From: a phage
DNA length: 64,000 nt
Assembly (NCBI GenBank): GCA_017676145.1
Contig: GCA_017676145.1_3628.1
Direction: 5' to 3' (one strand)
The position numbers and the translations under genes were made by a program. Under the pieces are notes generated by a model. The model made no database searches, was not told the DNA's origin, and was given only the letters and a program-made list of their open reading frames with translations. Shown here in pieces: positions 51,090-60,730 of the stretch (the stretch's first letter is position 1; every line of letters starts with the position of its first letter).

Positions 51090-51166
51090 TGGTCTCCACG
51101 GAGTGATTCGAACACTCGACCTCCTGATCCCAAATCAGGCGCTCTACCAAGCTGAGCTACGCGGAG
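51090..51166 (-). tRNA. tRNA-Pro (anticodon UGG)
   Basis: Manual cloverleaf: acceptor CTCCGCG/CGTGGAG (C1-G72), D-arm GCTC/GAGC, anticodon loop TTTGGGA, T-arm GAGTG-TTCGAAT-CACTC, encoded CCA. Confidence 0.8.
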
Positions 51167-51177
51167 TATTTATAATT

Positions 51178-51252
51178 TGGTGGCCCTGGGTGGAATTGAA
51201 CCACCGTCTGGCGATTATGAGTCGCTTGCTTGAACCTTCCAGCTACAGGGCC
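51178..51252 (-). tRNA. tRNA-Met (anticodon CAU; elongator Met or Ile2 type cannot be distinguished)
   Basis: Manual fold: acceptor GGCCCTG/CAGGGCC, anticodon loop CTCATAA, T-arm GGTGG-TTCAATT-CCACC, encoded CCA. Confidence 0.75.
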
Positions 51253-51253
51253 A

Positions 51254-51329
51254 TGGTGCTGATGGCAGGACTTGAACCTGCAACCTATTGATTACAAATC
51301 AATTGCACTACCGATTGTGCTACATCAGC
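51254..51329 (-). tRNA. tRNA-Thr (anticodon UGU)
   Basis: Manual fold: acceptor GCTGATG/CATCAGC, D-arm GCAC/GTGC, anticodon stem ATTGA/TCAAT with loop TTTGTAA, T-arm GCAGG-TTCAAGT-CCTGC, encoded CCA. Confidence 0.8.
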
Positions 51330-51335
51330 AAAAAG

Positions 51336-51440
51336 GTGCTAGGTGATGGAATCGAACCACCTATGTATTCAACGACTACCTCGTCTATTTTCAGGATTAA
51401 AAATCCTCGCCCTTGCCAAAGGGCTTACCTAGCGCAATAT
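51336..51440 (-). ncRNA. tRNA-like element, non-canonical (pseudo-tRNA or small stable RNA)
   Basis: Has 7-bp acceptor-like stem GCTAGGT/ACCTAGC, D-like arm GCCC/GGGC and T-arm GGTGG-TTCGATT-CCATC, but no 7-nt anticodon loop and ~30 nt extra between anticodon-like and T arms; CCA not fully encoded. Confidence 0.35.
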
Positions 51441-51531
51441 GTTGACCATGTGGCTAGTCGGCGATGACGACTGTAACATTTGATAATCCGGTTCTGCTTC
51501 CGGCTTTCGCTTAATTACAAGGTCAACAATG

Positions 51532-51622
51532 TGGCGGAGAGTAATGGAATCGAACCATCATCGAGTCATCCTCAACGGGACGGTTTTCAAGACCGCTTGA
51601 GCACCATTGCTCCCTACCCTCC
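51532..51622 (-). tRNA. tRNA-Ser (anticodon UGA), type II with long variable arm
   Basis: Acceptor GGAGGGT/ACTCTCC, anticodon arm GCGGT-CTTGAAA-ACCGT nearly identical to E. coli tRNA-Ser(UGA) as recalled, ~20-nt variable arm, discriminator G, encoded CCA. Confidence 0.75.
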
Positions 51623-51736
51623 TTTATAAATTACACTGATAATGACACTGATTTTCGAGCAGTTAGTGACTAGTATAAACGACGATAAATATCAATGCCA
51701 TTATCTGTATGATTTATGCATTTAAAAATATAAATT

Positions 51737-51824
51737 TGGTGGTGAGTGATGGAGTCGAACCACCCGAATCGCAATGATAACAGATTTACAGTCTGCCCCG
51801 CTACCCCTACGGAATTAACTCACC
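51737..51824 (-). tRNA. tRNA-Tyr (anticodon GUA), type II
   Basis: Acceptor GGTGAGT/ACTCACC, anticodon stem CAGA/TCTG with loop CTGTAAA, long variable arm, T-arm GGTGG-TTCGACT-CCATC, encoded CCA. Confidence 0.75.
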
Positions 51825-51954
51825 TAAATACTAATATTTAAATTCTTTTTAAAATAGCTAGTGTTCTCACCACTAACTATGAGGTATCGGTAAAGTGGTT
51901 ACCGCCACTTGCCGAAGATTTACTCTGCTAAAGTAAGCTACATTAAAAAGAACT

Positions 51955-52029
51955 TGGCACCCCGTACTGGACTCGAACCAGTGTCAACGGCTTAGAAGGC
52001 CGCTGCTTTATCCACTAAGCTAACAGGGC
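51955..52029 (-). tRNA. tRNA-Arg (anticodon UCU)
   Basis: Acceptor GCCCTGT/ACGGGGT (two G-U pairs), D-arm GCTT/AAGC, anticodon stem GCGGC/GCCGT with loop CTTCTAA, T-arm ACTGG-TTCGAGT-CCAGT, encoded CCA. Confidence 0.7.
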
Positions 52030-54567: not shown

Positions 54568-54918
54568 CTAACCAGTTGTTGACATTCGAATAACCTCTTC
54601 TGGTGGCAAAACTTTGGAAAATGTGCATCTTTTACCTCTCCCTTGTGTGGATATTTCAACCACTCCTGCACATTCTAAAGTTTTAACGCACGCTGCTGCT
54701 TTTGTTTTCTTTATCCCAACATCTGCTGCAATTTTCCTTGTGCTGGGTGTGAAGCGTGAATTTCCTCCAAGCTTATACCAGTTGTGCAGGTAGCAGTATA
54801 CGATCTTGTCATACAAGTCAAGAACAACAACCTCCCCGGTTGTGTCATTCAAAACTTTTGACATAGACAGTATTTCAAGGGGGACTTTAAGATATAGCAG
54901 CTTATCCCCATCTTTCAT
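54568..54918 (-). CDS. small putative DNA-binding protein (HTH-like, 116 aa; assigned from sequence appearance only)
   Basis: Segment STRKIAADVGIKKTKAAACVKTLECAGVV reads as a helix-turn-helix recognition region; gene ends ~70 bp from the repeat array. Confidence 0.45.
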   Translation of the reverse strand: MKDGDKLLYLKVPLEILSMSKVLNDTTGEVVVLDLYDKIVYCYLHNWYKLGGNSRFTPSTRKIAADVGIKKTKAAACVKTLECAGVVEISTQGRGKRCTFSKVLPPEEVIRMSTTG

Positions 54919-54965: not shown

Positions 54966-55520
54966 TTACTCCCCGCTGTCAATAGCAAGACTCATTGCAA
55001 TACGGTATGCCTCTTCTAATGGTAAGAGTCTCCCCCACACATCCCAACCGACATCAAACTGCCTGCCAAACAACTGTTGCGTGGTTCCGTGAGCATGACC
55101 GAACAGTTGGACTGATCCGTGATGCTTTCTGTTCCACGTTGCAAACTGGTAATGACTCATACAGATCAAATTCTTGTTGTGGCGAAACTCGTAATAATCT
55201 ACAACCTCATGATAGAACTCTTTCATAATTCTGACAGTCGTCCTTGTGTCATGGTTGCCACGAACAAGAATAATATGTCCGTTCAACATATTTAGAATAT
55301 CTGGAAGTAAGTTGTTGATATTCTTATCATTAGTGCACGCAATATCCCCCAAGTGGAACACAGTGTCTGCAGGTGACACAACAGAGTTCCACTCGGTGAT
55401 GATTCCAGCATTCATACTGTCAAGATTGTGATCATACTGAGATCTGTGTTTTTGACACGAGTCAAACTCCATGACCCGCTGGTGGAGAAAGTGTGTGTCA
55501 CTTGTTACAAAGTATTTCAT
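54966..55520 (-). CDS. calcineurin-like metallophosphoesterase (phosphatase)
   Basis: Internal start MKYFVTSDTHF preferred over the listed 55625; motifs D-x-H (SDTHF), GD (LGDIA), GNHD, GHAH typical of the metallophosphoesterase fold. Confidence 0.65.
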   Translation of the reverse strand: MKYFVTSDTHFLHQRVMEFDSCQKHRSQYDHNLDSMNAGIITEWNSVVSPADTVFHLGDIACTNDKNINNLLPDILNMLNGHIILVRGNHDTRTTVRIMKEFYHEVVDYYEFRHNKNLICMSHYQFATWNRKHHGSVQLFGHAHGTTQQLFGRQFDVGWDVWGRLLPLEEAYRIAMSLAIDSGE

Positions 55521-55527
55521 ACATTCC

Positions 55528-55938
55528 TCATTTAAGTTTAATGCAGTTTTTAAGCTGGCGTTCCATACGATCCACGACCATGTCTGGAACATCATGAATG
55601 CTTTTATTACCGTGGCGGTTTTCAACCACGATTACGGTATAACTATACCCATGACTGATTGCCATGTCAACATATTCTTGCACATGTTTTTCTTTTGTAA
55701 ACGTATTACTTACCACGATACGGTCGTATCCCATACGCATCATATCTTCTACGTTATCTTTGCACCATTTTGCTGCAAGTGTTACTTTACTTGCATCCCA
55801 GTTGTAATTGCCGTCATCGTCGTACCAGAACATGTCGTTCTCAAAATGTGGATACAGACCTTCTAAAGATAGCGCATTTGCCAGTGTTGATTTGCCAGAC
55901 CCTGGTAGACCACGCACGATATATAGCATTTTAGACAT
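55528..55938 (-). CDS. P-loop polynucleotide 5'-kinase-like protein (T4 Pnk kinase-domain-like)
   Basis: ATG at 55938 with GGAGG RBS preferred over the listed 56094; LPGSGKST Walker A, ENDMF Asp, VVSNTF and VPDMVVDRMERQ blocks parallel T4 Pnk kinase motifs recalled from memory. Confidence 0.6.
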   Translation of the reverse strand: MSKMLYIVRGLPGSGKSTLANALSLEGLYPHFENDMFWYDDDGNYNWDASKVTLAAKWCKDNVEDMMRMGYDRIVVSNTFTKEKHVQEYVDMAISHGYSYTVIVVENRHGNKSIHDVPDMVVDRMERQLKNCIKLK

Positions 55939-55966
55939 AGCGGCCCTCCGTTTTAATTTTAATGAT

Positions 55967-55995
55967 AGTATAGCGTGCTCTTTTGAACATTTCAA
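55967..55995 (-). promoter_or_regulatory. candidate promoter (TTGAAA-17-TATACT) in divergent control region
   Basis: On minus strand TTGAAAtgttcaaaagagcacgcTATACT upstream of the kinase gene; a plus-strand TTGACA (55998-56003) faces the RNA ligase gene. Confidence 0.4.
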
Positions 55996-56038
55996 GTGTT
56001 GACATGATGCTGTTTGTGTGGGAAGATTGTGGAACAAA

Positions 56039-56974
56039 ATGACAAATGAGGAACGTATGATGAAGTATTTTAATGCAGACGACCTAGTTGACAAAGGTCT
56101 TGTAACCAGCAGATATTACCCAGATCTTGGATTAAAGATCTATAAATATGCCAGAAAAGTATTTTACAACAATTTATGGCATTTGTCTCCTCGTTTGCTG
56201 GAGTGCCGGGGAATTGTTGTCGGTAATGAAGGAAATGTTGTGGCATGGCCCTTCACAAAAGTGTTTAACTTGGGAGAAAACTCCACCAACCTGCCTGACA
56301 ATAAGCTTGTGACGGCGGTAGAGAAAAAGAACGGATTCCTTGGTGTGGTATCATCTCATAAAGGTGAACTATTGTTCTCAACAACCGGATCTCTTGATTC
56401 TCCATATTGTAACCTCGCAAAGGAAACCATCCAGGAGCAATGTGGTAATTTAGATCTTATCAAGAAGGTTATGGGCAAAGAAAACATGACATTCATGTTT
56501 GAAATTTGTCACCCTTCAGATCCGCATATTGTTCAGGAAGATCATGGCGCATATTTGATAGGCTGCAGATATAATGATTCTGGAATAATGCTACCAGAAG
56601 CAGCTTTAGATGGGATTGCCAAACACCTTGGTGCAAAACGTCCTCACACTGTGCGTGAAATTCCGTTCAGCTATGCAAAAGAATTAGCTGCAGAAACAAG
56701 AGGTGAAGGGTATATGATTCGTAAGCCTTACTACCCTTATGACCTGCAGCTGAAGATCAAGTCTCCATACTATCTGGCACGGAAGGCCGTAATGAGGGGT
56801 AAGGCTTGGAAGATTTGGGATGATGATATCTTTAAACGTATTGACGAAGAGTTTTACGGCATGGTAAACTTCATTCGTAGCAATTACACAGAGGATGTGT
56901 GGAACTGCCTCCTGGAGCAGGAACGCCGTGAGATACTTGATTGCTATTTCCACAACGAGGACTATATGCAATGA
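56039..56974 (+). CDS. RNA ligase, T4 RnlA (Rnl1)-like
   Basis: Blocks LECRGIVV, KVFNLGENS, motif I VEKKNGF (K-x-N-G), motif IV EGYMIRK, motif V LKIKSPYY align with T4 Rnl1 as recalled; start may be the ATG at 56039 or 56057. Confidence 0.7.
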   Translation: MTNEERMMKYFNADDLVDKGLVTSRYYPDLGLKIYKYARKVFYNNLWHLSPRLLECRGIVVGNEGNVVAWPFTKVFNLGENSTNLPDNKLVTAVEKKNGFLGVVSSHKGELLFSTTGSLDSPYCNLAKETIQEQCGNLDLIKKVMGKENMTFMFEICHPSDPHIVQEDHGAYLIGCRYNDSGIMLPEAALDGIAKHLGAKRPHTVREIPFSYAKELAAETRGEGYMIRKPYYPYDLQLKIKSPYYLARKAVMRGKAWKIWDDDIFKRIDEEFYGMVNFIRSNYTEDVWNCLLEQERREILDCYFHNEDYMQ

Positions 56975-57321
56975 AGAAGTTGATTGTGTGGCTTGATGAT
57001 TTTAGAGATCCGTCAGATTATGGACTCCCAGACGCTCTGTGGCTAAAGAATTCTTCTGAGTTTATGGATTTCATCGATGACAAGGGAAAGCTATATAGAC
57101 GCGTTTCTGAGTGGCATTTTGACAGCGACTTGGGAGAAATTTTTGAAGGATACGATTGCTTCTGCATACTAGAGGAAAAATTTGTATTTGGTAAGCCTCC
57201 TGTAGTTGACAACGTGAAGATTTTCGTGCATACTTCTAACCCATCAGCGGCTCGTAAATTCATGCTTGCTGCTGACTCGTTTAAAAAGTTTGGAATAGAG
57301 ATTAAACAAAACATCTACTGA
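56971..57321 (+). CDS. hypothetical protein (116 aa)
   Basis: ATG at 56971 overlaps the ligase stop (ATGA); no motif recognised. Confidence 0.5.
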   Translation: MKKLIVWLDDFRDPSDYGLPDALWLKNSSEFMDFIDDKGKLYRRVSEWHFDSDLGEIFEGYDCFCILEEKFVFGKPPVVDNVKIFVHTSNPSAARKFMLAADSFKKFGIEIKQNIY

Positions 57322-57329
57322 GGACACTT

Positions 57330-58091
57330 ATGCGACGACTGATCATTATCTCCGGCGCTGGTTTGAGCGCTGAATCTGGTATCCCAACTTTCCGATCTGG
57401 TTGCACTGCAATGTGGGAGAATTTCAGCATCGATGAGGTGTGTAACATCCACACCTTTGCCAAGAACTACTATAAGGTGCATGACTTTTACAATGCACGG
57501 CGTGTAGCTCTGGGCAGTGTTGATCCTAACATTGCACATCTCCGGATCGCTGAGTGGTATTCCCGCTGGTCTGGTCGTGTGATCAACCTGACCACCAATG
57601 TAGATGATTTGCTGGAGCGTGCTGGTGTAAAACATGAAGATATTTTACATGTCCACGGATATTTGCCAGAAATAGTCTATGAGGATGATGAAGGGAGTGA
57701 CGTCATTAAAGACATTGGATACTCTGAGGTAGATGCAAGCGAGTATACTTGGGTCAAGCCTAATGTGGTGTTCTTCGGAGAAGTAGCTCCGAAGTATACA
57801 GACATGTATGACCTGTTGACTTCTCTTACGAGTAATGATATGGTTATCCTTGTAGGGTGTTCCAACACAGTTATCAATTTTAACTGGGAGCTATTCCCTG
57901 CCTGCAATAAGGGAACCAAACTGCTGATCGTTAACAAATACGACTCACAGCAGCTAGGGGAGAATGGTATTTCACGTAGTGATATTTACCAATATGAGGA
58001 TCGCGGCATCCCAGTTTGGTTTAACGGGGCGGTTGATGCTTTCTCTGATAAAACATTCATTGAGACCGTAGAAAACTTTATGGAACTTTAA
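57330..58091 (+). CDS. Sir2 (sirtuin)-like NAD-binding protein lacking the zinc ribbon
   Basis: ISGAGLSAESGIPTFRS (GAGxSxxSGIPxFR), TTNVDDLLERAG (TQNIDxL-type), HVHG catalytic-His context, VVFFGE and GCS blocks; no CxxC pairs between them. Confidence 0.7.
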   Translation: MRRLIIISGAGLSAESGIPTFRSGCTAMWENFSIDEVCNIHTFAKNYYKVHDFYNARRVALGSVDPNIAHLRIAEWYSRWSGRVINLTTNVDDLLERAGVKHEDILHVHGYLPEIVYEDDEGSDVIKDIGYSEVDASEYTWVKPNVVFFGEVAPKYTDMYDLLTSLTSNDMVILVGCSNTVINFNWELFPACNKGTKLLIVNKYDSQQLGENGISRSDIYQYEDRGIPVWFNGAVDAFSDKTFIETVENFMEL

Positions 58092-58104
58092 AAGGAGACC
58101 TTTA

Positions 58105-58818
58105 ATGCTGAATACCAAATTAATTGACAACCTGGAAAAACTGTCCCAACCTGAAAACTACCTTTGGTCTGCCAACTGGGTGGAAAACTGGAACCGTGTG
58201 GCAGCTAAAGTGAAAAAATCATACACACCATTCGAATTACAGCTTAGCTTCATTGAGGAAGAGTTCAATGAAGTTTTGGAAGAGCTGGAGAAAGGTGATG
58301 GCGGAGATCACCTGCTAAAAGAGGCCTGCGATCTTCACGTTGTCACAAGTTATGCCGCTTATCTTGTTAATGATAATCACGAAAAGTGGTCAAACCTGTT
58401 TGATAATCCACAGGGTCTTAAGTTCAAGATCGGTGAGTTCTATGATACACTGATCGCTGCGAAAAACACCTCTAAGCAAAAAGCGTCCGCTTACCGCTTA
58501 GCAGAGTTGTCAACAGCTTTGCTGTTCCAGCTTCGCGGCGATGTGTGCGGGATGATGCGTAAGGTTCTCAAATCGAATGACAGCAAGTTTGCACGAGTCA
58601 ACCATCTACGGTATTCACACGGTGCCAGTGCAGATATGCCTGCTGAACAACTCATCGAGTTGGAGATTAAAGATCTTGAGCGACGCTTTGATGGTCGATA
58701 TGAAGGTTTTGTTGCTAAGGAAGAATTCTACAACGGAAATAAAGTTATCATATTCCTCGACAGTAAAGGTAAGATTATGAAGCCTTCAAGCTTCAAGGAT
58801 GTAACAGAATATATTTAA
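58105..58818 (+). CDS. hypothetical protein, possibly MazG-like nucleotide pyrophosphohydrolase
   Basis: Acidic helical EEEFNEVLEELEKGD...LLKEACDL segment resembles MazG EExxE/D motifs; weak. Confidence 0.35.
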   Translation: MLNTKLIDNLEKLSQPENYLWSANWVENWNRVAAKVKKSYTPFELQLSFIEEEFNEVLEELEKGDGGDHLLKEACDLHVVTSYAAYLVNDNHEKWSNLFDNPQGLKFKIGEFYDTLIAAKNTSKQKASAYRLAELSTALLFQLRGDVCGMMRKVLKSNDSKFARVNHLRYSHGASADMPAEQLIELEIKDLERRFDGRYEGFVAKEEFYNGNKVIIFLDSKGKIMKPSSFKDVTEYI

Positions 58819-58824
58819 CAACAT

Positions 58825-58855
58825 AGCCGGGGCGATCCCGGCTTTACTTGTTTCG
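58825..58855 (+). terminator. rho-independent terminator
   Basis: AGCCGGG-gcgatc-CCGGCT hairpin followed by TTACTTGTTTC after stop of 58105..58818. Confidence 0.5.
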
Positions 58856-59191: not shown

Positions 59192-59447
59192 TCTTGCTAA
59201 ACCTGTAGAAGCACACCAGTTTGATGGAAGCTCTTCATCAGTATCTGATCTGCAACGGTGGATTGATACAGGTGTGTTTACATCGTCACCTGTTCGAACC
59301 AGAGATATTCTTCGCATGTGTGAGCTTGTCGAGCCGTTTGGTAACCTTGTCTTGTACCAAGGGGATTGGTTAGTTGACTTTATGGGAGACTGGTTGGTAA
59401 TGAGCAAAGAAGAGATGTTTAAAATTTTTAAGGAAGAGGCTGAGTAA
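59178..59447 (+). CDS. hypothetical protein (89 aa)
   Basis: Overlapping co-oriented ORF; stop overlaps ligase start (TAATG). Confidence 0.45.
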   Translation: MPLFNLAKPVEAHQFDGSSSSVSDLQRWIDTGVFTSSPVRTRDILRMCELVEPFGNLVLYQGDWLVDFMGDWLVMSKEEMFKIFKEEAE

Positions 59448-60730
59448 TGCATCAGATCAAAACAACACTGTACGCACTGAACAAAGATGGCAGCTACCAA
59501 CAGTGGAAAGTATTCACGGATGGTGATAAGGTTATCGTAGAGTTTGGCAAGCTTGATGGTAAACTGCAATACAAAGAGACGATCTGCACACCTAAGAACG
59601 TTGGTCGTGCCAATGAAACTACAGCTGAGCAACAGGCTGAGCTGGAAGCGATCAGTAAGTGGGAAAAACAAGTCCGTCTGGGGTATGTTGAAAATATGGA
59701 AGATTGCGAGCAGGGTGTTGACCTTTTACCCATGCTGGTGCATGACTACCTGAAGCGTGGAAAGGCACTTAAATTACCTTGCTGGATCTTGCGTAAGTTA
59801 GATGGCCTTCGTCTACTTGTTGTTTTCCAAAATGGTGAGCCTAAATTTATTTCCCGTGGTAATAAGTCCTACCCTATTCAAGGAAAGCTTCTGGAGCAAC
59901 TTCGTTCTTTCCACTTCACCACCGGGATTAAACAGCTCGACGGAGAGATCTATATTCATGGCCTGCCTCTGCAGAAAATAGTGTCTCTTGCTAAACGGTG
60001 GCGCACACAGGAAGAGATTCAGGCCGAGATCGATAAAGACTACGAGGCAGATAAAAAACGCCGTCATGCCGCAATTAAGGCAGGCTTATCAACATACAAA
60101 AACTTCAACAAGGTAGATATTCCTGTTGATGTTGAGCCTGTTCGTGATGATTTGCGTTACGGTGGGTACTGTAGCTACGATCTAGAGTATCACATTTTTG
60201 ATATTCCTAGTGACAAGGTGTGGTGGGATCCAGAAACAGAATCTGGACGCTGCAAGGATCTTATGGATGTAGAAGATACCATTACCACTCTGATGCTTGA
60301 CCATATCAAGGTTGTTGACGCAGAGCTTGCGTACACAGTTGATCATTGCGAAGAATCTGTCGGTGTATTCATGTCCGAAGGGTATGAAGGTACTATCATG
60401 CGTAACTTCTGTGGTAAATACGAATACGGTCAGCGAACATCTGAAGCATTGAAATGGAAAAAGTTCAACGATGCTGAGGTGAAAGTTATTGACGTTGAGA
60501 AAGATAAGAATGATGAAGGTGTTCTTATCTGTGTTGACAAGGAAGGTATTGTTGTTAAAATGAAGATGAAAGGTACGCACGAGGAGCGTAGCTATGACAG
60601 GATGCAGGAAATGATCGGCAAGTTTGTCACCTTCAAATATCAAGCAAGGACAGAAGACAACAACTACCAATTCCCTGTCGGTATCTGCGTCCGAAATGTT
60701 AACCCAGACACTTGGGAGGTGCTGGAATAA
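59447..60730 (+). CDS. ATP-dependent DNA ligase
   Basis: Nucleotidyltransferase motif I KLDGLR, motif III LDGEIYI, motif IV EGTIMR, motif V LKWKK; 427 aa. Confidence 0.75.
   Translation: MHQIKTTLYALNKDGSYQQWKVFTDGDKVIVEFGKLDGKLQYKETICTPKNVGRANETTAEQQAELEAISKWEKQVRLGYVENMEDCEQGVDLLPMLVHDYLKRGKALKLPCWILRKLDGLRLLVVFQNGEPKFISRGNKSYPIQGKLLEQLRSFHFTTGIKQLDGEIYIHGLPLQKIVSLAKRWRTQEEIQAEIDKDYEADKKRRHAAIKAGLSTYKNFNKVDIPVDVEPVRDDLRYGGYCSYDLEYHIFDIPSDKVWWDPETESGRCKDLMDVEDTITTLMLDHIKVVDAELAYTVDHCEESVGVFMSEGYEGTIMRNFCGKYEYGQRTSEALKWKKFNDAEVKVIDVEKDKNDEGVLICVDKEGIVVKMKMKGTHEERSYDRMQEMIGKFVTFKYQARTEDNNYQFPVGICVRNVNPDTWEVLE

What the first reader, a model, noticed from the sequence alone, without database searches (positions are those of the whole stretch)
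54966..56974. Split RNA healing-and-sealing gene set (Pnk-like kinase, metallophosphatase, RnlA-like ligase) on divergent promoters near the tRNA array
A T4 Pnk-type 5'-kinase domain gene and a calcineurin-like metallophosphoesterase gene sit on the minus strand, divergent from a T4 RnlA-type RNA ligase on the plus strand, about 4 kb from the tRNA genes. Together they supply the three activities needed to repair tRNAs cut by host anticodon nucleases, but the phosphatase is a metallophosphoesterase rather than the HAD domain fused in T4 Pnkp. That is a kinase/phosphatase/ligase combination more like bacterial Pnkp systems, here split into separate phage genes.
Basis: partly seen in the sequence, partly recalled or inferred. 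Interest (0 to 1): 0.65.

Follow-up and report, generated by a model that had tools for sequence, protein, structure and literature searches.

The report
Phage RNA-end repair gene set
This rV5-type E. coli phage carries a kinase, a metal-dependent phosphatase and an RNA ligase that most likely mend cut tRNAs, but the set is already annotated in over a hundred genomes and was described for phage V5 in 2022.

Summary
Three intact genes lie at 54966-56974: a metallophosphoesterase and a small P-loop kinase on the minus strand, and an Rnl1-type RNA ligase on the plus strand.

The window is a Vequintavirus, 95-96% identical to APECc02 and JeffSchatz. GenBank already labels these genes RNA ligase, polynucleotide kinase and phosphoesterase.

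The kinase is Pnk-like. It matches the T4 Pnk domain with 96% probability, and its best structural matches are polynucleotide kinases. The ligase has all the nucleotidyltransferase motifs of T4 Rnl1 but a different, short C-terminus. The phosphatase has every metallophosphoesterase metal-binding motif, yet its only close solved relative is an uncharacterised Aquifex protein, not lambda phosphatase or CthPnkp.

Across 240 viral loci, the three genes are usually adjacent on one strand. Kinase and ligase are fused in nine loci. The kinase-phosphatase pair also partners an unrelated RNA ligase family. This supports an RNA healing-and-sealing role.

Iyer et al. 2022 described exactly this neighbourhood for phage V5. 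No biochemical or genetic test of it turned up in my searches. Verdict: real, sensibly interpreted, already known.

The parts
54966..55520 (-). Stand-alone binuclear metallophosphoesterase (184 aa). It is the proposed 3'-end healing enzyme, removing a 2',3'-cyclic or 3'-phosphate.
   Evidence: Pfam Metallophos E 2.5e-6 and phrog_547 E 1.6e-51. The family profile hits Aquifex aq_1665 (1xm7) at E 6.6e-22 and nothing else below 1e-4. D8, H10, D59, N89, H90, H123, H142 and H144 are invariant in 22 homologues; these are the DxH, GD, GNH, H and GHxH motifs. It accompanied the kinase in 58 of 80 kinase-anchored loci.
55528..55938 (-). Stand-alone Pnk-like P-loop kinase (136 aa). It is the proposed RNA 5'-OH kinase.
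   Evidence: AAA_33 E 2.5e-10 and phrog_505 'polynucleotide kinase' E 1e-9. hhalign against the T4 Pnk kinase domain gives 96% probability, E 2.5e-9, and D35 aligns with the T4 catalytic D35. The best PDB profile hits are the Mucorales RNA 5'-OH kinase, Pnkp1, PSTK, T4 Pnk and CthPnk. The top Foldseek matches are CthPnk and T4 Pnkp, TM 0.73-0.77. It is fused to the ligase in 9 loci.
55939..56056 (.). 118-nt divergent intergenic region holding both ribosome-binding sites and a minus-strand promoter-like site.
   Evidence: GGAGG lies 6 nt before the kinase ATG and GAGGA lies 5 nt before the ligase ATG (read). TTGAAA-17-TATACT at 55995->55967 scores 10 of 12. GC skew changes sign here.
56057..56974 (+). 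Rnl1-clade ATP-dependent RNA ligase (305 aa) with a short helical C-terminal module unlike that of T4 Rnl1.
   Evidence: PF09511 scores 57 bits against a cut-off of 28. The profile hits T4 Rnl1 (2c5u) at E 1.5e-15 over residues 45-235 only. K90/N92/G93, F148/E149, E217/G218 and K233/K235 are invariant; these are motifs I, III, IV and V. The AF2 model has pLDDT 93.5, and its top Foldseek hits are fungal Trl1 ligase domains and T4 Rnl1.
56971..57321 (+). cREC protein (116 aa, cyclic-phosphate-processing receiver domain), overlapping the ligase stop codon by ATGA. It is a predicted cyclic phosphodiesterase.
   Evidence: PF20274 cREC_REC E 5.3e-13 and phrog_1479. The overlap follows from the ORF coordinates and the annotation in a relative. 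The predicted role is from PMC7824862 and PMC9503650. It was found in only 10 of 80 ligase loci.
57330..58091 (+). Sir2-family protein (253 aa, CobB/SIRT5-like) lacking the zinc-ribbon cysteines. It is proposed in the literature to remove a junction 2'-phosphate using NAD+.
   Evidence: PF02146 E 1e-26. E. coli CobB (1s5p) E 2.4e-21; the catalytic His is retained, and no cysteine occupies the positions of the CobB zinc site. The hypothesis is from PMC9503650 section 3.7.3.
58105..58818 (+). MazG-like nucleotide pyrophosphohydrolase homologue (237 aa), the last gene of the ligase operon.
   Evidence: phrog_671 E 6e-22. No Pfam, NCBIfam or PDB sequence hit. Iyer et al. 2022 call it a MazG-superfamily protein.
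58825..58843 (+). G+C-rich stem-loop followed by a T-rich tail. It is the likely terminator of the ligase-cREC-Sir2-MazG transcript.
   Evidence: 8-pair stem with 6 G-C pairs. A terminator is annotated at the same place in phage Gotham.
51090..52029 (-). Phage tRNA array: Pro, Met/Ile(CAU), Thr, an atypical Lys(UUU), Ser, Tyr and Arg. These are context and candidate substrates, not part of the enzyme set.
   Evidence: ARAGORN and Rfam. tRNA genes lie within +/-8 kb of the ligase homologue in 38 of 80 viral loci.

Best explanation
The three genes encode a split RNA end-healing and sealing pathway. A host ribonuclease cuts an RNA, most plausibly an anticodon nuclease cutting a tRNA, and leaves a 2',3'-cyclic phosphate and a 5'-OH.

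- The metallophosphoesterase opens and removes the 3'-terminal phosphate.
- The Pnk-like kinase phosphorylates the 5'-OH.
- The Rnl1-type ligase adenylylates the 5'-phosphate and seals the break.

In this lineage the ligase is co-transcribed with cREC, Sir2 and MazG-like genes. These may add a second, NAD+-dependent way of handling the 3' end.

What is shown: gene identities, conserved catalytic residues, and conserved linkage, including gene fusion and ligase swapping. What is inferred: the substrates, the enzyme activities, and the counter-defence role.
For: Kinase:
- hhalign to the T4 Pnk kinase domain gives 96% probability, E 2.5e-9. The P-loop, the catalytic Asp35 and an invariant lid arginine (R108, aligned with T4 R122) all align.
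- PDB profile hits below E 0.003 are RNA 5'-OH, polynucleotide or tRNA-dependent kinases, apart from one P-loop-only match to adenylate kinase 9. They include the Mucorales tRNA-splicing RNA kinase (PMC11571804).
- Foldseek TM is 0.72-0.77 to CthPnk, T4 Pnkp and Pnkp1, against 0.42-0.60 for small-molecule kinases.

Ligase:
- It matches T4 Rnl1 at E 1.5e-15, and motifs I, III, IV and V are invariant.
- The model has pLDDT 93.5, and Rnl1-clade structures top the fold search.

Phosphoesterase:
- All metal-binding motifs are invariant.

Linkage:
- 43 of 59 non-redundant ligase loci carry both partners. They lie on the ligase strand in 46 of 47 (kinase) and 48 of 49 (phosphoesterase) cases.
- Kinase and ligase are a single ORF in 9 loci.
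- 58 of 80 kinase-anchored loci carry the phosphoesterase. 44 of 80 carry an RNA ligase, either the Rnl1-type or an unrelated PF09414 type.
- tRNA genes lie within 8 kb in 38 of 80 loci.

Precedent, from established knowledge: T4 Pnkp and Rnl1 reverse PrrC damage. CthPnkp and lambda phosphatase are metallophosphoesterases with 2',3'-cyclic phosphodiesterase activity (PMC2190708, listed).
Against: No enzyme activity or phenotype has been measured for any of these proteins.

The phosphoesterase belongs to a subfamily whose only close solved member (1xm7) is uncharacterised. It shows no detectable sequence link to the CthPnkp/lambda clade.

Two residues essential in T4 Pnk are not kept: R38 is W or F here, and D85 is an invariant Asn.

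The ligase lacks a recognisable T4-like C-terminal tRNA-specificity domain.

33 of 80 phosphoesterase-anchored loci and 16 of 80 kinase-anchored loci show no partner. Many of those contigs are short.

An ATP-dependent DNA ligase lies nearby in 32 of 80 loci, so the whole region is a general nucleic-acid metabolism block.
Confidence: 0.68

Rival explanations
1. A yeast- or plant-style, NAD+-dependent pathway is the main route in this phage (Iyer et al. 2022).

- cREC opens the 2',3'-cyclic phosphate to a 2'-phosphate.
- The kinase and ligase then join the ends, leaving a 2'-phosphate at the junction.
- Sir2 transfers that phosphate to NAD+, as Tpt1/KptA does.
- MazG and/or the metallophosphoesterase clear the ADP-ribose by-products.

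On this reading the phosphoesterase is accessory rather than the 3' healer.
For: Ligase, cREC, Sir2 and MazG form one tightly packed operon, with an ATGA overlap, gaps of 8 and 13 nt, and a terminator only after MazG. The same set recurs in PVP-SE1-like and Klebsiella relatives whose ligases are only 44-49% identical. The hypothesis is published for phage V5 itself. The Sir2 keeps its catalytic His but has lost the zinc ribbon that helps form the acyl-lysine peptide cleft. Mucorales use separate ligase, kinase and Tpt1 enzymes in this way.
Against: Only about 7 of 59 non-redundant ligase loci carry cREC, Sir2 or MazG, whereas 43 of 59 carry kinase plus phosphoesterase. The ligase family therefore normally works without them. 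No sirtuin has been shown to act on an RNA 2'-phosphate, and cREC has not been characterised experimentally. This pathway is not exclusive of the main explanation.
Confidence: 0.2
2. The kinase and phosphoesterase heal DNA or mixed nucleic-acid ends (5'-OH and 3'-phosphate nicks) for the nearby ATP-dependent DNA ligase. The RNA ligase is then only loosely connected to them.
For: An ATP-dependent DNA ligase lies at 59447-60730 and within 8 kb in 32 of 80 loci. T4 Pnkp and the Mucorales kinase act on DNA as well as RNA. The phosphoesterase shows a weak match to PdeM, a DNA-ligase-associated phosphoesterase (E 0.001, far below the cut-off).
Against: The kinase is fused to the RNA ligase, not to the DNA ligase. 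The kinase-phosphoesterase pair follows RNA ligases of two unrelated families. In most loci the partners abut the RNA ligase, while the DNA ligase is 0.7-4 kb away and is absent from most loci.
Confidence: 0.07
3. The three genes have unrelated jobs: a nucleotide kinase for precursor supply, a protein or small-molecule phosphatase, and a ligase homologue acting as a tail-fibre attachment factor like T4 gp63. They are neighbours only because phage accessory genes cluster.
For: Iyer et al. call the kinase a 'nucleotide kinase'. Many GenBank and PHROG labels carry over 'tail fiber attachment catalyst'. The kinase E-values to the solved Pnk structures are modest, 1e-4 to 1e-3. The phosphoesterase subfamily is uncharacterised.
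Against: Adjacency on one strand persists in ligase lineages down to 35% identity. There are kinase-ligase fusions, and two RNA ligase families exchange beside the same kinase-phosphoesterase pair. Structural neighbours of the kinase are polynucleotide kinases, not nucleotide kinases. All ligase catalytic motifs are invariant.
Confidence: 0.05

Closest known systems
Sirtuin-centred phage RNA-repair neighbourhood, type 2, 'prototyped by Escherichia phage V5 and Proteus phage Mydo' (Iyer, Burroughs, Anantharaman, Aravind 2022, Viruses 14:1977, PMC9503650)
   Same: It is the same genes in the same phage genus: T4-like tRNA ligase, cREC, kinase, Sir2, MazG and a calcineurin-like phosphoesterase. 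The window ligase is 97.7% identical to that of phage V5.
   Different: Nothing differs in the locus itself. My survey changes the emphasis. From the ligase's point of view, the kinase and phosphoesterase are the regular partners (43 of 59). Sir2, cREC and MazG are the lineage-restricted addition (about 7 of 59), whereas the paper calls the phosphoesterase 'occasional'.
Phage T4 Pnkp (PseT) plus Rnl1 (RnlA), the PrrC counter-defence
   Same: The logic is the same: 5'-kinase, 3'-phosphate removal and an Rnl1-clade ligase. The kinase P-loop and catalytic Asp, and all the ligase nucleotidyltransferase motifs, are conserved.
   Different: The kinase stands alone, with no HAD phosphatase domain. 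T4 R38 and D85 are replaced. 3' healing falls to a separate metallophosphoesterase. The ligase C-terminal module is about 65 aa and is not matched to the T4 tRNA-binding domain. The NCBIfam RnlA equivalog score is 39, against a cut-off of 242.
Bacterial Pnkp/Hen1 (Clostridium thermocellum Pnkp) and the Pnkp1-Rnl-Hen1 RNA repair complexes
   Same: Both use the kinase + metallophosphoesterase + ATP-dependent RNA ligase combination. CthPnk and Pnkp1 are among the best structural and sequence matches of the kinase.
   Different: Here there are three separate proteins rather than one polypeptide. The phosphoesterase is of the aq_1665 subfamily, with no lambda-phosphatase or CthPnkp hit at E <= 0.1. 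The ligase is Rnl1-type. No Hen1 methyltransferase was seen among the neighbours scanned.
Fungal tRNA splicing: Trl1, and the split Mucorales system of stand-alone ligase, stand-alone RNA 5'-OH kinase and Tpt1
   Same: Both have a stand-alone Rnl1-clade ligase and a stand-alone small RNA kinase. The RazKIN structure is the best PDB profile hit of the kinase, E 5.5e-6. Trl1 ligase domains top the ligase fold search.
   Different: The fungal system uses a 2H cyclic phosphodiesterase and Tpt1. The phage has a metallophosphoesterase and, only hypothetically, cREC and Sir2 in those roles.

Membership tests
T4 Pnk-type polynucleotide 5'-kinase domain | P-loop GxxGxGK(S/T) | tested here: met
   G10-L-P-G-S-G15-K16-S17-T18. 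G10, G15, K16 and T18 are invariant in 36 homologues.
T4 Pnk-type polynucleotide 5'-kinase domain | Catalytic aspartate general base (T4 D35, CthPnk D38, MciKIN D36) | tested here: met
   D35 is invariant and aligns with T4 D35 in hhalign. The match itself is independently seen against 1ltq and 1ly1.
T4 Pnk-type polynucleotide 5'-kinase domain | T4 Arg38 and Asp85 (essential in T4 Pnk; from my own knowledge of the Shuman-lab mutagenesis) | tested here: not met
   W38 (F in most homologues) and an invariant N78 occupy these columns.
T4 Pnk-type polynucleotide 5'-kinase domain | Overall profile and fold similarity greater than to small-molecule kinases | tested here: met
   hhalign 96% probability, E 2.5e-9. 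Foldseek TM 0.73-0.77 to CthPnk and T4 Pnkp, against 0.42-0.60 for shikimate, gluconate and UMP-CMP kinases.
T4 Pnk-type polynucleotide 5'-kinase domain | Fused C-terminal HAD (DxDxT) 3'-phosphatase domain, as in T4 Pnkp | tested here: not met
   The protein is 136 aa and consists of the kinase domain only.
T4 Pnk-type polynucleotide 5'-kinase domain | Phosphorylates 5'-OH polynucleotide ends | not testable with these tools
   This needs an enzyme assay.
Rnl1 clade of ATP-dependent RNA ligases (T4 RnlA, Trl1 ligase domain) | Nucleotidyltransferase motifs I (KxxG lysine nucleophile), III, IV and V | tested here: met
   K90-K-N92-G93, F148-E149, E217-G218 and K233-x-K235 are invariant in 34 homologues. 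They align with T4 K99, E159, E227/G228 and K238/K240.
Rnl1 clade of ATP-dependent RNA ligases (T4 RnlA, Trl1 ligase domain) | Curated family thresholds | tested here: inconclusive
   Pfam PF09511 scores 57.2 bits, above its 28.3 cut-off. The NCBIfam T4 RnlA equivalog TIGR02308 scores 39.4 bits, far below its 242 cut-off. So it is a clade member but not an RnlA equivalog.
Rnl1 clade of ATP-dependent RNA ligases (T4 RnlA, Trl1 ligase domain) | T4-type C-terminal helical domain that confers tRNA specificity | tested here: not met
   The profile match to 2c5u ends at query residue 235. The remaining 65-70 residues form four short helices, with their own invariant D263-E264-E265 and R290-R291.
Bacterial Pnkp (CthPnkp)/Hen1 RNA repair system | Kinase, phosphatase and ligase domains in one polypeptide | tested here: not met
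   There are three separate genes on two strands.
Bacterial Pnkp (CthPnkp)/Hen1 RNA repair system | Lambda-phosphatase-like metallophosphoesterase domain | tested here: not met
   The phosphoesterase family profile finds only 1xm7 (E 6.6e-22) and four weak, unrelated metallophosphoesterases at E <= 0.1.
Bacterial Pnkp (CthPnkp)/Hen1 RNA repair system | Hen1 methyltransferase partner | not tested
   None was seen among the nine neighbouring proteins scanned. The rest of the window was not scanned.
Calcineurin-like binuclear metallophosphoesterase superfamily | DxH, GD, GNH(D/E), H and GHxH metal-binding motifs | tested here: met
   D8/H10, G58/D59, G88/N89/H90, H123 and G141/H142/H144 are invariant in 22 homologues. 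Pfam PF00149 scores 28.5 bits, above its 21.5 cut-off.
Phage V5-type sirtuin/cREC/ligase RNA-repair neighbourhood (Iyer et al. 2022) | Sirtuin gene linked to a T4-like ligase, cREC, a kinase and MazG, with or without a calcineurin-like phosphoesterase | tested here: met
   All six genes lie within 54966-58818. The definition is quoted.

The most novel reading that the evidence does not exclude
The small Pnk-like kinase and the aq_1665-type metallophosphoesterase form a widespread, portable phage RNA-end 'healing' pair. It plugs into interchangeable sealing enzymes: the Rnl1-type ligase, a PF09414/OB-fold ligase, or a kinase-ligase fusion. On this reading the pair, not a T4-style HAD Pnkp, does this job in the rV5-like, PVP-SE1-like, Pseudomonas Pakpuna-like, Vibrio and other phages that carry it. 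Vequintaviruses would additionally run a second, NAD+/Sir2-dependent 3'-end route. That would let them repair damage from more than one class of host tRNA nuclease.
Probability: 0.35. Interest if true: 0.5.

Novelty: already known. Interest (0 to 1): 0.27.

Why it matters
tRNA-cutting defence systems such as PrrC, RloC, PARIS, retron-PtuAB and OLD are now known to be common. Apart from T4 Pnkp and Rnl1, phage repair of that damage has hardly been studied experimentally.

This gene set is present in 671 cultured-phage records, including therapeutic candidates against E. coli, Klebsiella, Pseudomonas and Acinetobacter. Its activity could therefore shape host range.

The biochemical questions are open and easy to test:
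- Does this metallophosphoesterase subfamily heal RNA 3' ends?
- Can a sirtuin act like Tpt1?

As a genome-scan finding, though, it re-describes an annotated and published prediction.

Tried and rejected
- **Single-sequence PDB searches.** phmmer with the kinase and the ligase gave no meaningful hits. Profiles were needed.
- **Fusions with the phosphoesterase.** I looked for metallophosphoesterase fusions to a kinase or ligase that would mirror CthPnkp. There were none among the top 120 of 1621 homologues, nor in 240 loci.
- **cREC prevalence.** I asked whether cREC, Sir2 and MazG are general partners of the ligase. Iterated HMM searches plus a motif scan found cREC in only 10 of 80 loci.
- **The odd tRNA as a splicing substrate.** I considered that the 97-99 nt tRNA might carry an intron that the ligase splices. 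Rfam and folding place the extra 26 nt in the variable arm, not the anticodon loop. I found no support for splicing.
- **Literature access.** Burroughs & Aravind 2016 (NAR 44:8525), the primary survey of RNA repair systems, is not held in the library. I could not check whether it already describes the triad.
- **MazG-like protein.** It has no Pfam, NCBIfam or PDB sequence match. Its assignment rests on PHROG 671 and the literature.
- **Published tests.** Searches for experimental work on this module in Vequintaviruses or PAK_P-type phages found none.
Full report
**What is there.** The window is a Vequintavirus, an rV5-like E. coli myovirus. The 4.4 kb around the finding is 95-96% identical to 118 GenBank phage genomes, led by APECc02, YP-6 and the BASEL phage JeffSchatz.

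ORF listing and the annotation of these relatives give six genes:
- a metallophosphoesterase at 54966-55520 (-), 184 aa;
- a P-loop kinase at 55528-55938 (-), 136 aa, separated from the phosphoesterase by 7 nt;
- after a 118-nt intergenic region, an RNA ligase at 56057-56974 (+), 305 aa;
- a 116-aa gene at 56971-57321 (+), overlapping the ligase stop by ATGA;
- a Sir2 gene at 57330-58091 (+);
- a 237-aa gene at 58105-58818 (+).

A G+C-rich stem-loop at 58825-58843 follows the last gene. A terminator is annotated there in phage Gotham. The tRNA array lies at 51090-52029 on the minus strand.

**Identity of the kinase.** Pfam assigns it only to AAA_33. PHROGs links it to 'polynucleotide kinase' at E 1e-9. 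Single-sequence search of the PDB was uninformative.

A profile of 36 homologues (A1) found these structures:
- the Mucorales stand-alone RNA 5'-OH kinase (9d8a, E 5.5e-6), an enzyme shown to work in tRNA splicing (PMC11571804);
- Pnkp1 of the Pnkp1-Rnl-Hen1 complex;
- O-phosphoseryl-tRNA kinase;
- T4 Pnk;
- C. thermocellum Pnk.

hhalign of A1 against the T4 Pnk kinase domain gave 96% probability, E 2.5e-9, over 117 columns. The P-loop and D35 align with T4 D35. An invariant R108 aligns with T4 R122. T4 R38 and D85 are replaced by W/F and an invariant Asn.

An AF2 model (pLDDT 83) is closest to CthPnk and T4 Pnkp, with TM 0.73-0.77. Small-molecule kinases score 0.42-0.60.

**Identity of the ligase.** PF09511 scores 57 bits. 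A profile of 34 homologues matches T4 Rnl1 at E 1.5e-15 over residues 45-235. K90/N92/G93, F148/E149, E217/G218 and K233/K235 are invariant. They align with T4 motifs I, III, IV and V.

The model (pLDDT 93.5) is closest to fungal Trl1 ligase domains and T4 Rnl1, followed by archaeal Rnl3.

The last 65-70 residues form four short helices with their own invariant DEE and RR motifs. They are not matched to the T4 C-terminal tRNA-specificity domain. The NCBIfam RnlA equivalog score is far below its cut-off.

The protein is thus an Rnl1-clade ligase but not an RnlA orthologue. The 'tail fiber attachment' label carried in many records is inherited from T4 gp63 and has no support here.

**Identity of the phosphoesterase.** All binuclear metallophosphoesterase motifs are invariant in 22 homologues. 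The family profile hits Aquifex aq_1665 (1xm7, function unknown) at E 6.6e-22. It hits nothing from the lambda-phosphatase or CthPnkp clade at E <= 0.1. The top 120 of 1621 database homologues are all stand-alone proteins of 180-210 aa.

It is therefore an active-looking enzyme of an uncharacterised subfamily. RNA 3'-end healing is inferred from context and by analogy with CthPnkp and lambda phosphatase (PMC2190708). It is not inferred from family membership.

**Is the grouping meaningful?** I fetched 80 viral contigs anchored on ligase homologues of 35-91% identity. I fetched 80 anchored on the kinase and 80 on the phosphoesterase. I scanned their ORFs with HMMs built from the window proteins.

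Ligase-anchored loci (59 non-redundant):
- 43 carry both partners within 8 kb, and 36 within 1.5 kb.
- The partners are on the ligase strand in 46 of 47 (kinase) and 48 of 49 (phosphoesterase) cases.
- The only divergent case is the Vequintavirus itself.
- In nine loci the kinase and ligase are one ORF of 421-432 aa.

Kinase-anchored loci:
- 58 of 80 carry the phosphoesterase.
- 44 of 80 carry an RNA ligase, either the Rnl1 type or an unrelated PF09414 ligase with a PHA02142 OB domain.

Gene fusion, together with exchange of the sealing enzyme beside a constant healing pair, is strong contextual evidence for a joint RNA-repair function.

tRNA genes occur within 8 kb of the ligase in 38 of 80 loci. 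This fits the tRNA-repair idea, but it could also reflect general clustering of accessory genes.

Caveats: the kinase- and phosphoesterase-anchored sets were not dereplicated, many contigs are short, and 33 of 80 phosphoesterase loci show no partner.

The gene overlapping the ligase stop is a cREC (cyclic-phosphate-processing receiver) domain protein, PF20274 at E 5e-13. Together with the Sir2 and the MazG-like gene it forms one compact operon with the ligase.

The Sir2 is CobB/SIRT5-like. It retains the catalytic His but lacks all the zinc-ribbon cysteines.

GC skew changes sign at about 56 kb. The 'divergent promoter' layout is therefore where the minus-strand gene block meets the plus-strand block, not a regulatory feature of the module.

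**Prior knowledge.** GenBank records already carry 'RNA ligase', 'polynucleotide kinase', 'phosphoesterase' and even 'RNA ligase /RNA repair'.

Iyer et al. [quoted passage not shown] They propose that the sirtuin removes 2'-phosphates as KptA does. The 2021 jumbo-phage survey from the same group defines cREC and notes its linkage to RNA ligases.

I found no experimental test. The primary 2016 survey by Burroughs and Aravind was not available.

**Mechanism and rivals.** The best-supported model is a T4/CthPnkp-style pathway carried out by three separate proteins:
- the phosphoesterase removes the 2',3'-cyclic phosphate;
- the kinase phosphorylates the 5'-OH;
- the ligase seals the break.

I give this a confidence of about 0.68 for the biochemistry, and less for the specific counter-defence role.

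The published NAD+/Sir2 route may operate as well, or instead, in this lineage (about 0.2). The ligase family usually occurs without cREC or Sir2. That argues this route is an add-on.

DNA-end repair (about 0.07) and unrelated functions (about 0.05) are disfavoured by the fusions and by the ligase swapping.

**Verdict.** The finding is accurate, and its interpretation is largely right at the level of enzyme classes. The claimed closeness to bacterial Pnkp is only superficial, the unit is larger than described, and the whole neighbourhood is already annotated and published for this very phage genus.

My one increment is quantitative. The kinase-phosphoesterase pair, rather than the Sir2/cREC set, is the regular companion of this ligase family, and the pair also serves a second ligase family.

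Interest is low to moderate. Novelty: already known, as an untested prediction.

Noticed in passing
window 51335-51433 (-): This is an atypical 97-99 nt tRNA-Lys(UUU)-like gene with a 5-bp extra arm in the variable region and a weak 4-bp anticodon stem. ARAGORN calls it tRNA-???; Rfam tRNA scores it 35.5 bits. It folds as a cloverleaf plus extra arm (z = -3.7). It is at least 99% identical in 89 of 124 phage records, more conserved than the flanking coding DNA. tRNA-Lys(UUU) is the PrrC and PARIS target, so this could be a nuclease-resistant substitute. That idea is untested.
   Followed up: partly
window 51532-51622 and 51740-51824 (-): The tRNA callers disagree. Rfam finds a tRNA-Tyr(GUA) with a long variable arm at 51740-51824 that ARAGORN missed. 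ARAGORN's tRNA-Ser(UGA) at 51532-51622 does not reach the Rfam gathering score.
   Followed up: no
window 57330-58091 (+): The phage Sir2 is CobB/SIRT5-like (1s5p, E 2.4e-21) and keeps its catalytic His. No cysteine occupies the positions of the CobB zinc ribbon, so the small domain that helps bind acyl-lysine peptides is remodelled.
   Followed up: partly
window ~56000 (55939-56056): GC skew is negative from 2 to 56 kb and positive from 56 to 64 kb. The kinase/ligase intergenic region is where the minus-strand gene block meets the plus-strand block.
   Followed up: partly
loci L087-L162 (e.g. L135 6580-7872): In many other phages the same kinase + metallophosphoesterase pair sits beside an unrelated RNA ligase (PF09414 with a PHA02142 OB-fold N-domain) instead of the Rnl1-type ligase. 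Two recurrent unannotated neighbours (about 414 aa in 18 loci, about 330 aa in 8 loci) have no Pfam match.
   Followed up: partly
loci L033-L044: These loci hold single-ORF kinase-ligase fusions of 421-432 aa with no metallophosphoesterase within 8 kb. What heals the 3' end there was not determined. L033 also carries, by eye, an intein-split second RNA-ligase-like gene and a PRPP-synthetase-like gene downstream.
   Followed up: no
GenBank records MG0656xx: About 18-23 records named 'Campylobacter phage' with host C. jejuni are 95-98% identical to E. coli Vequintaviruses across this region. Some are unannotated. The host is probably mislabelled, or the samples were contaminated.
   Followed up: no
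window 54568-54918 (-): The gene just downstream of the phosphoesterase is a small HTH protein (DUF6945/HTH_36; phrog_12838 'replication initiation protein'). It has its own promoter-like site at 54982->54953. GenBank annotates it variously as a transcriptional regulator. It was absent from all 80 ligase-anchored loci by HMM, including a 91%-identical Vequintavirus locus, so the search may simply have missed it.
   Followed up: no
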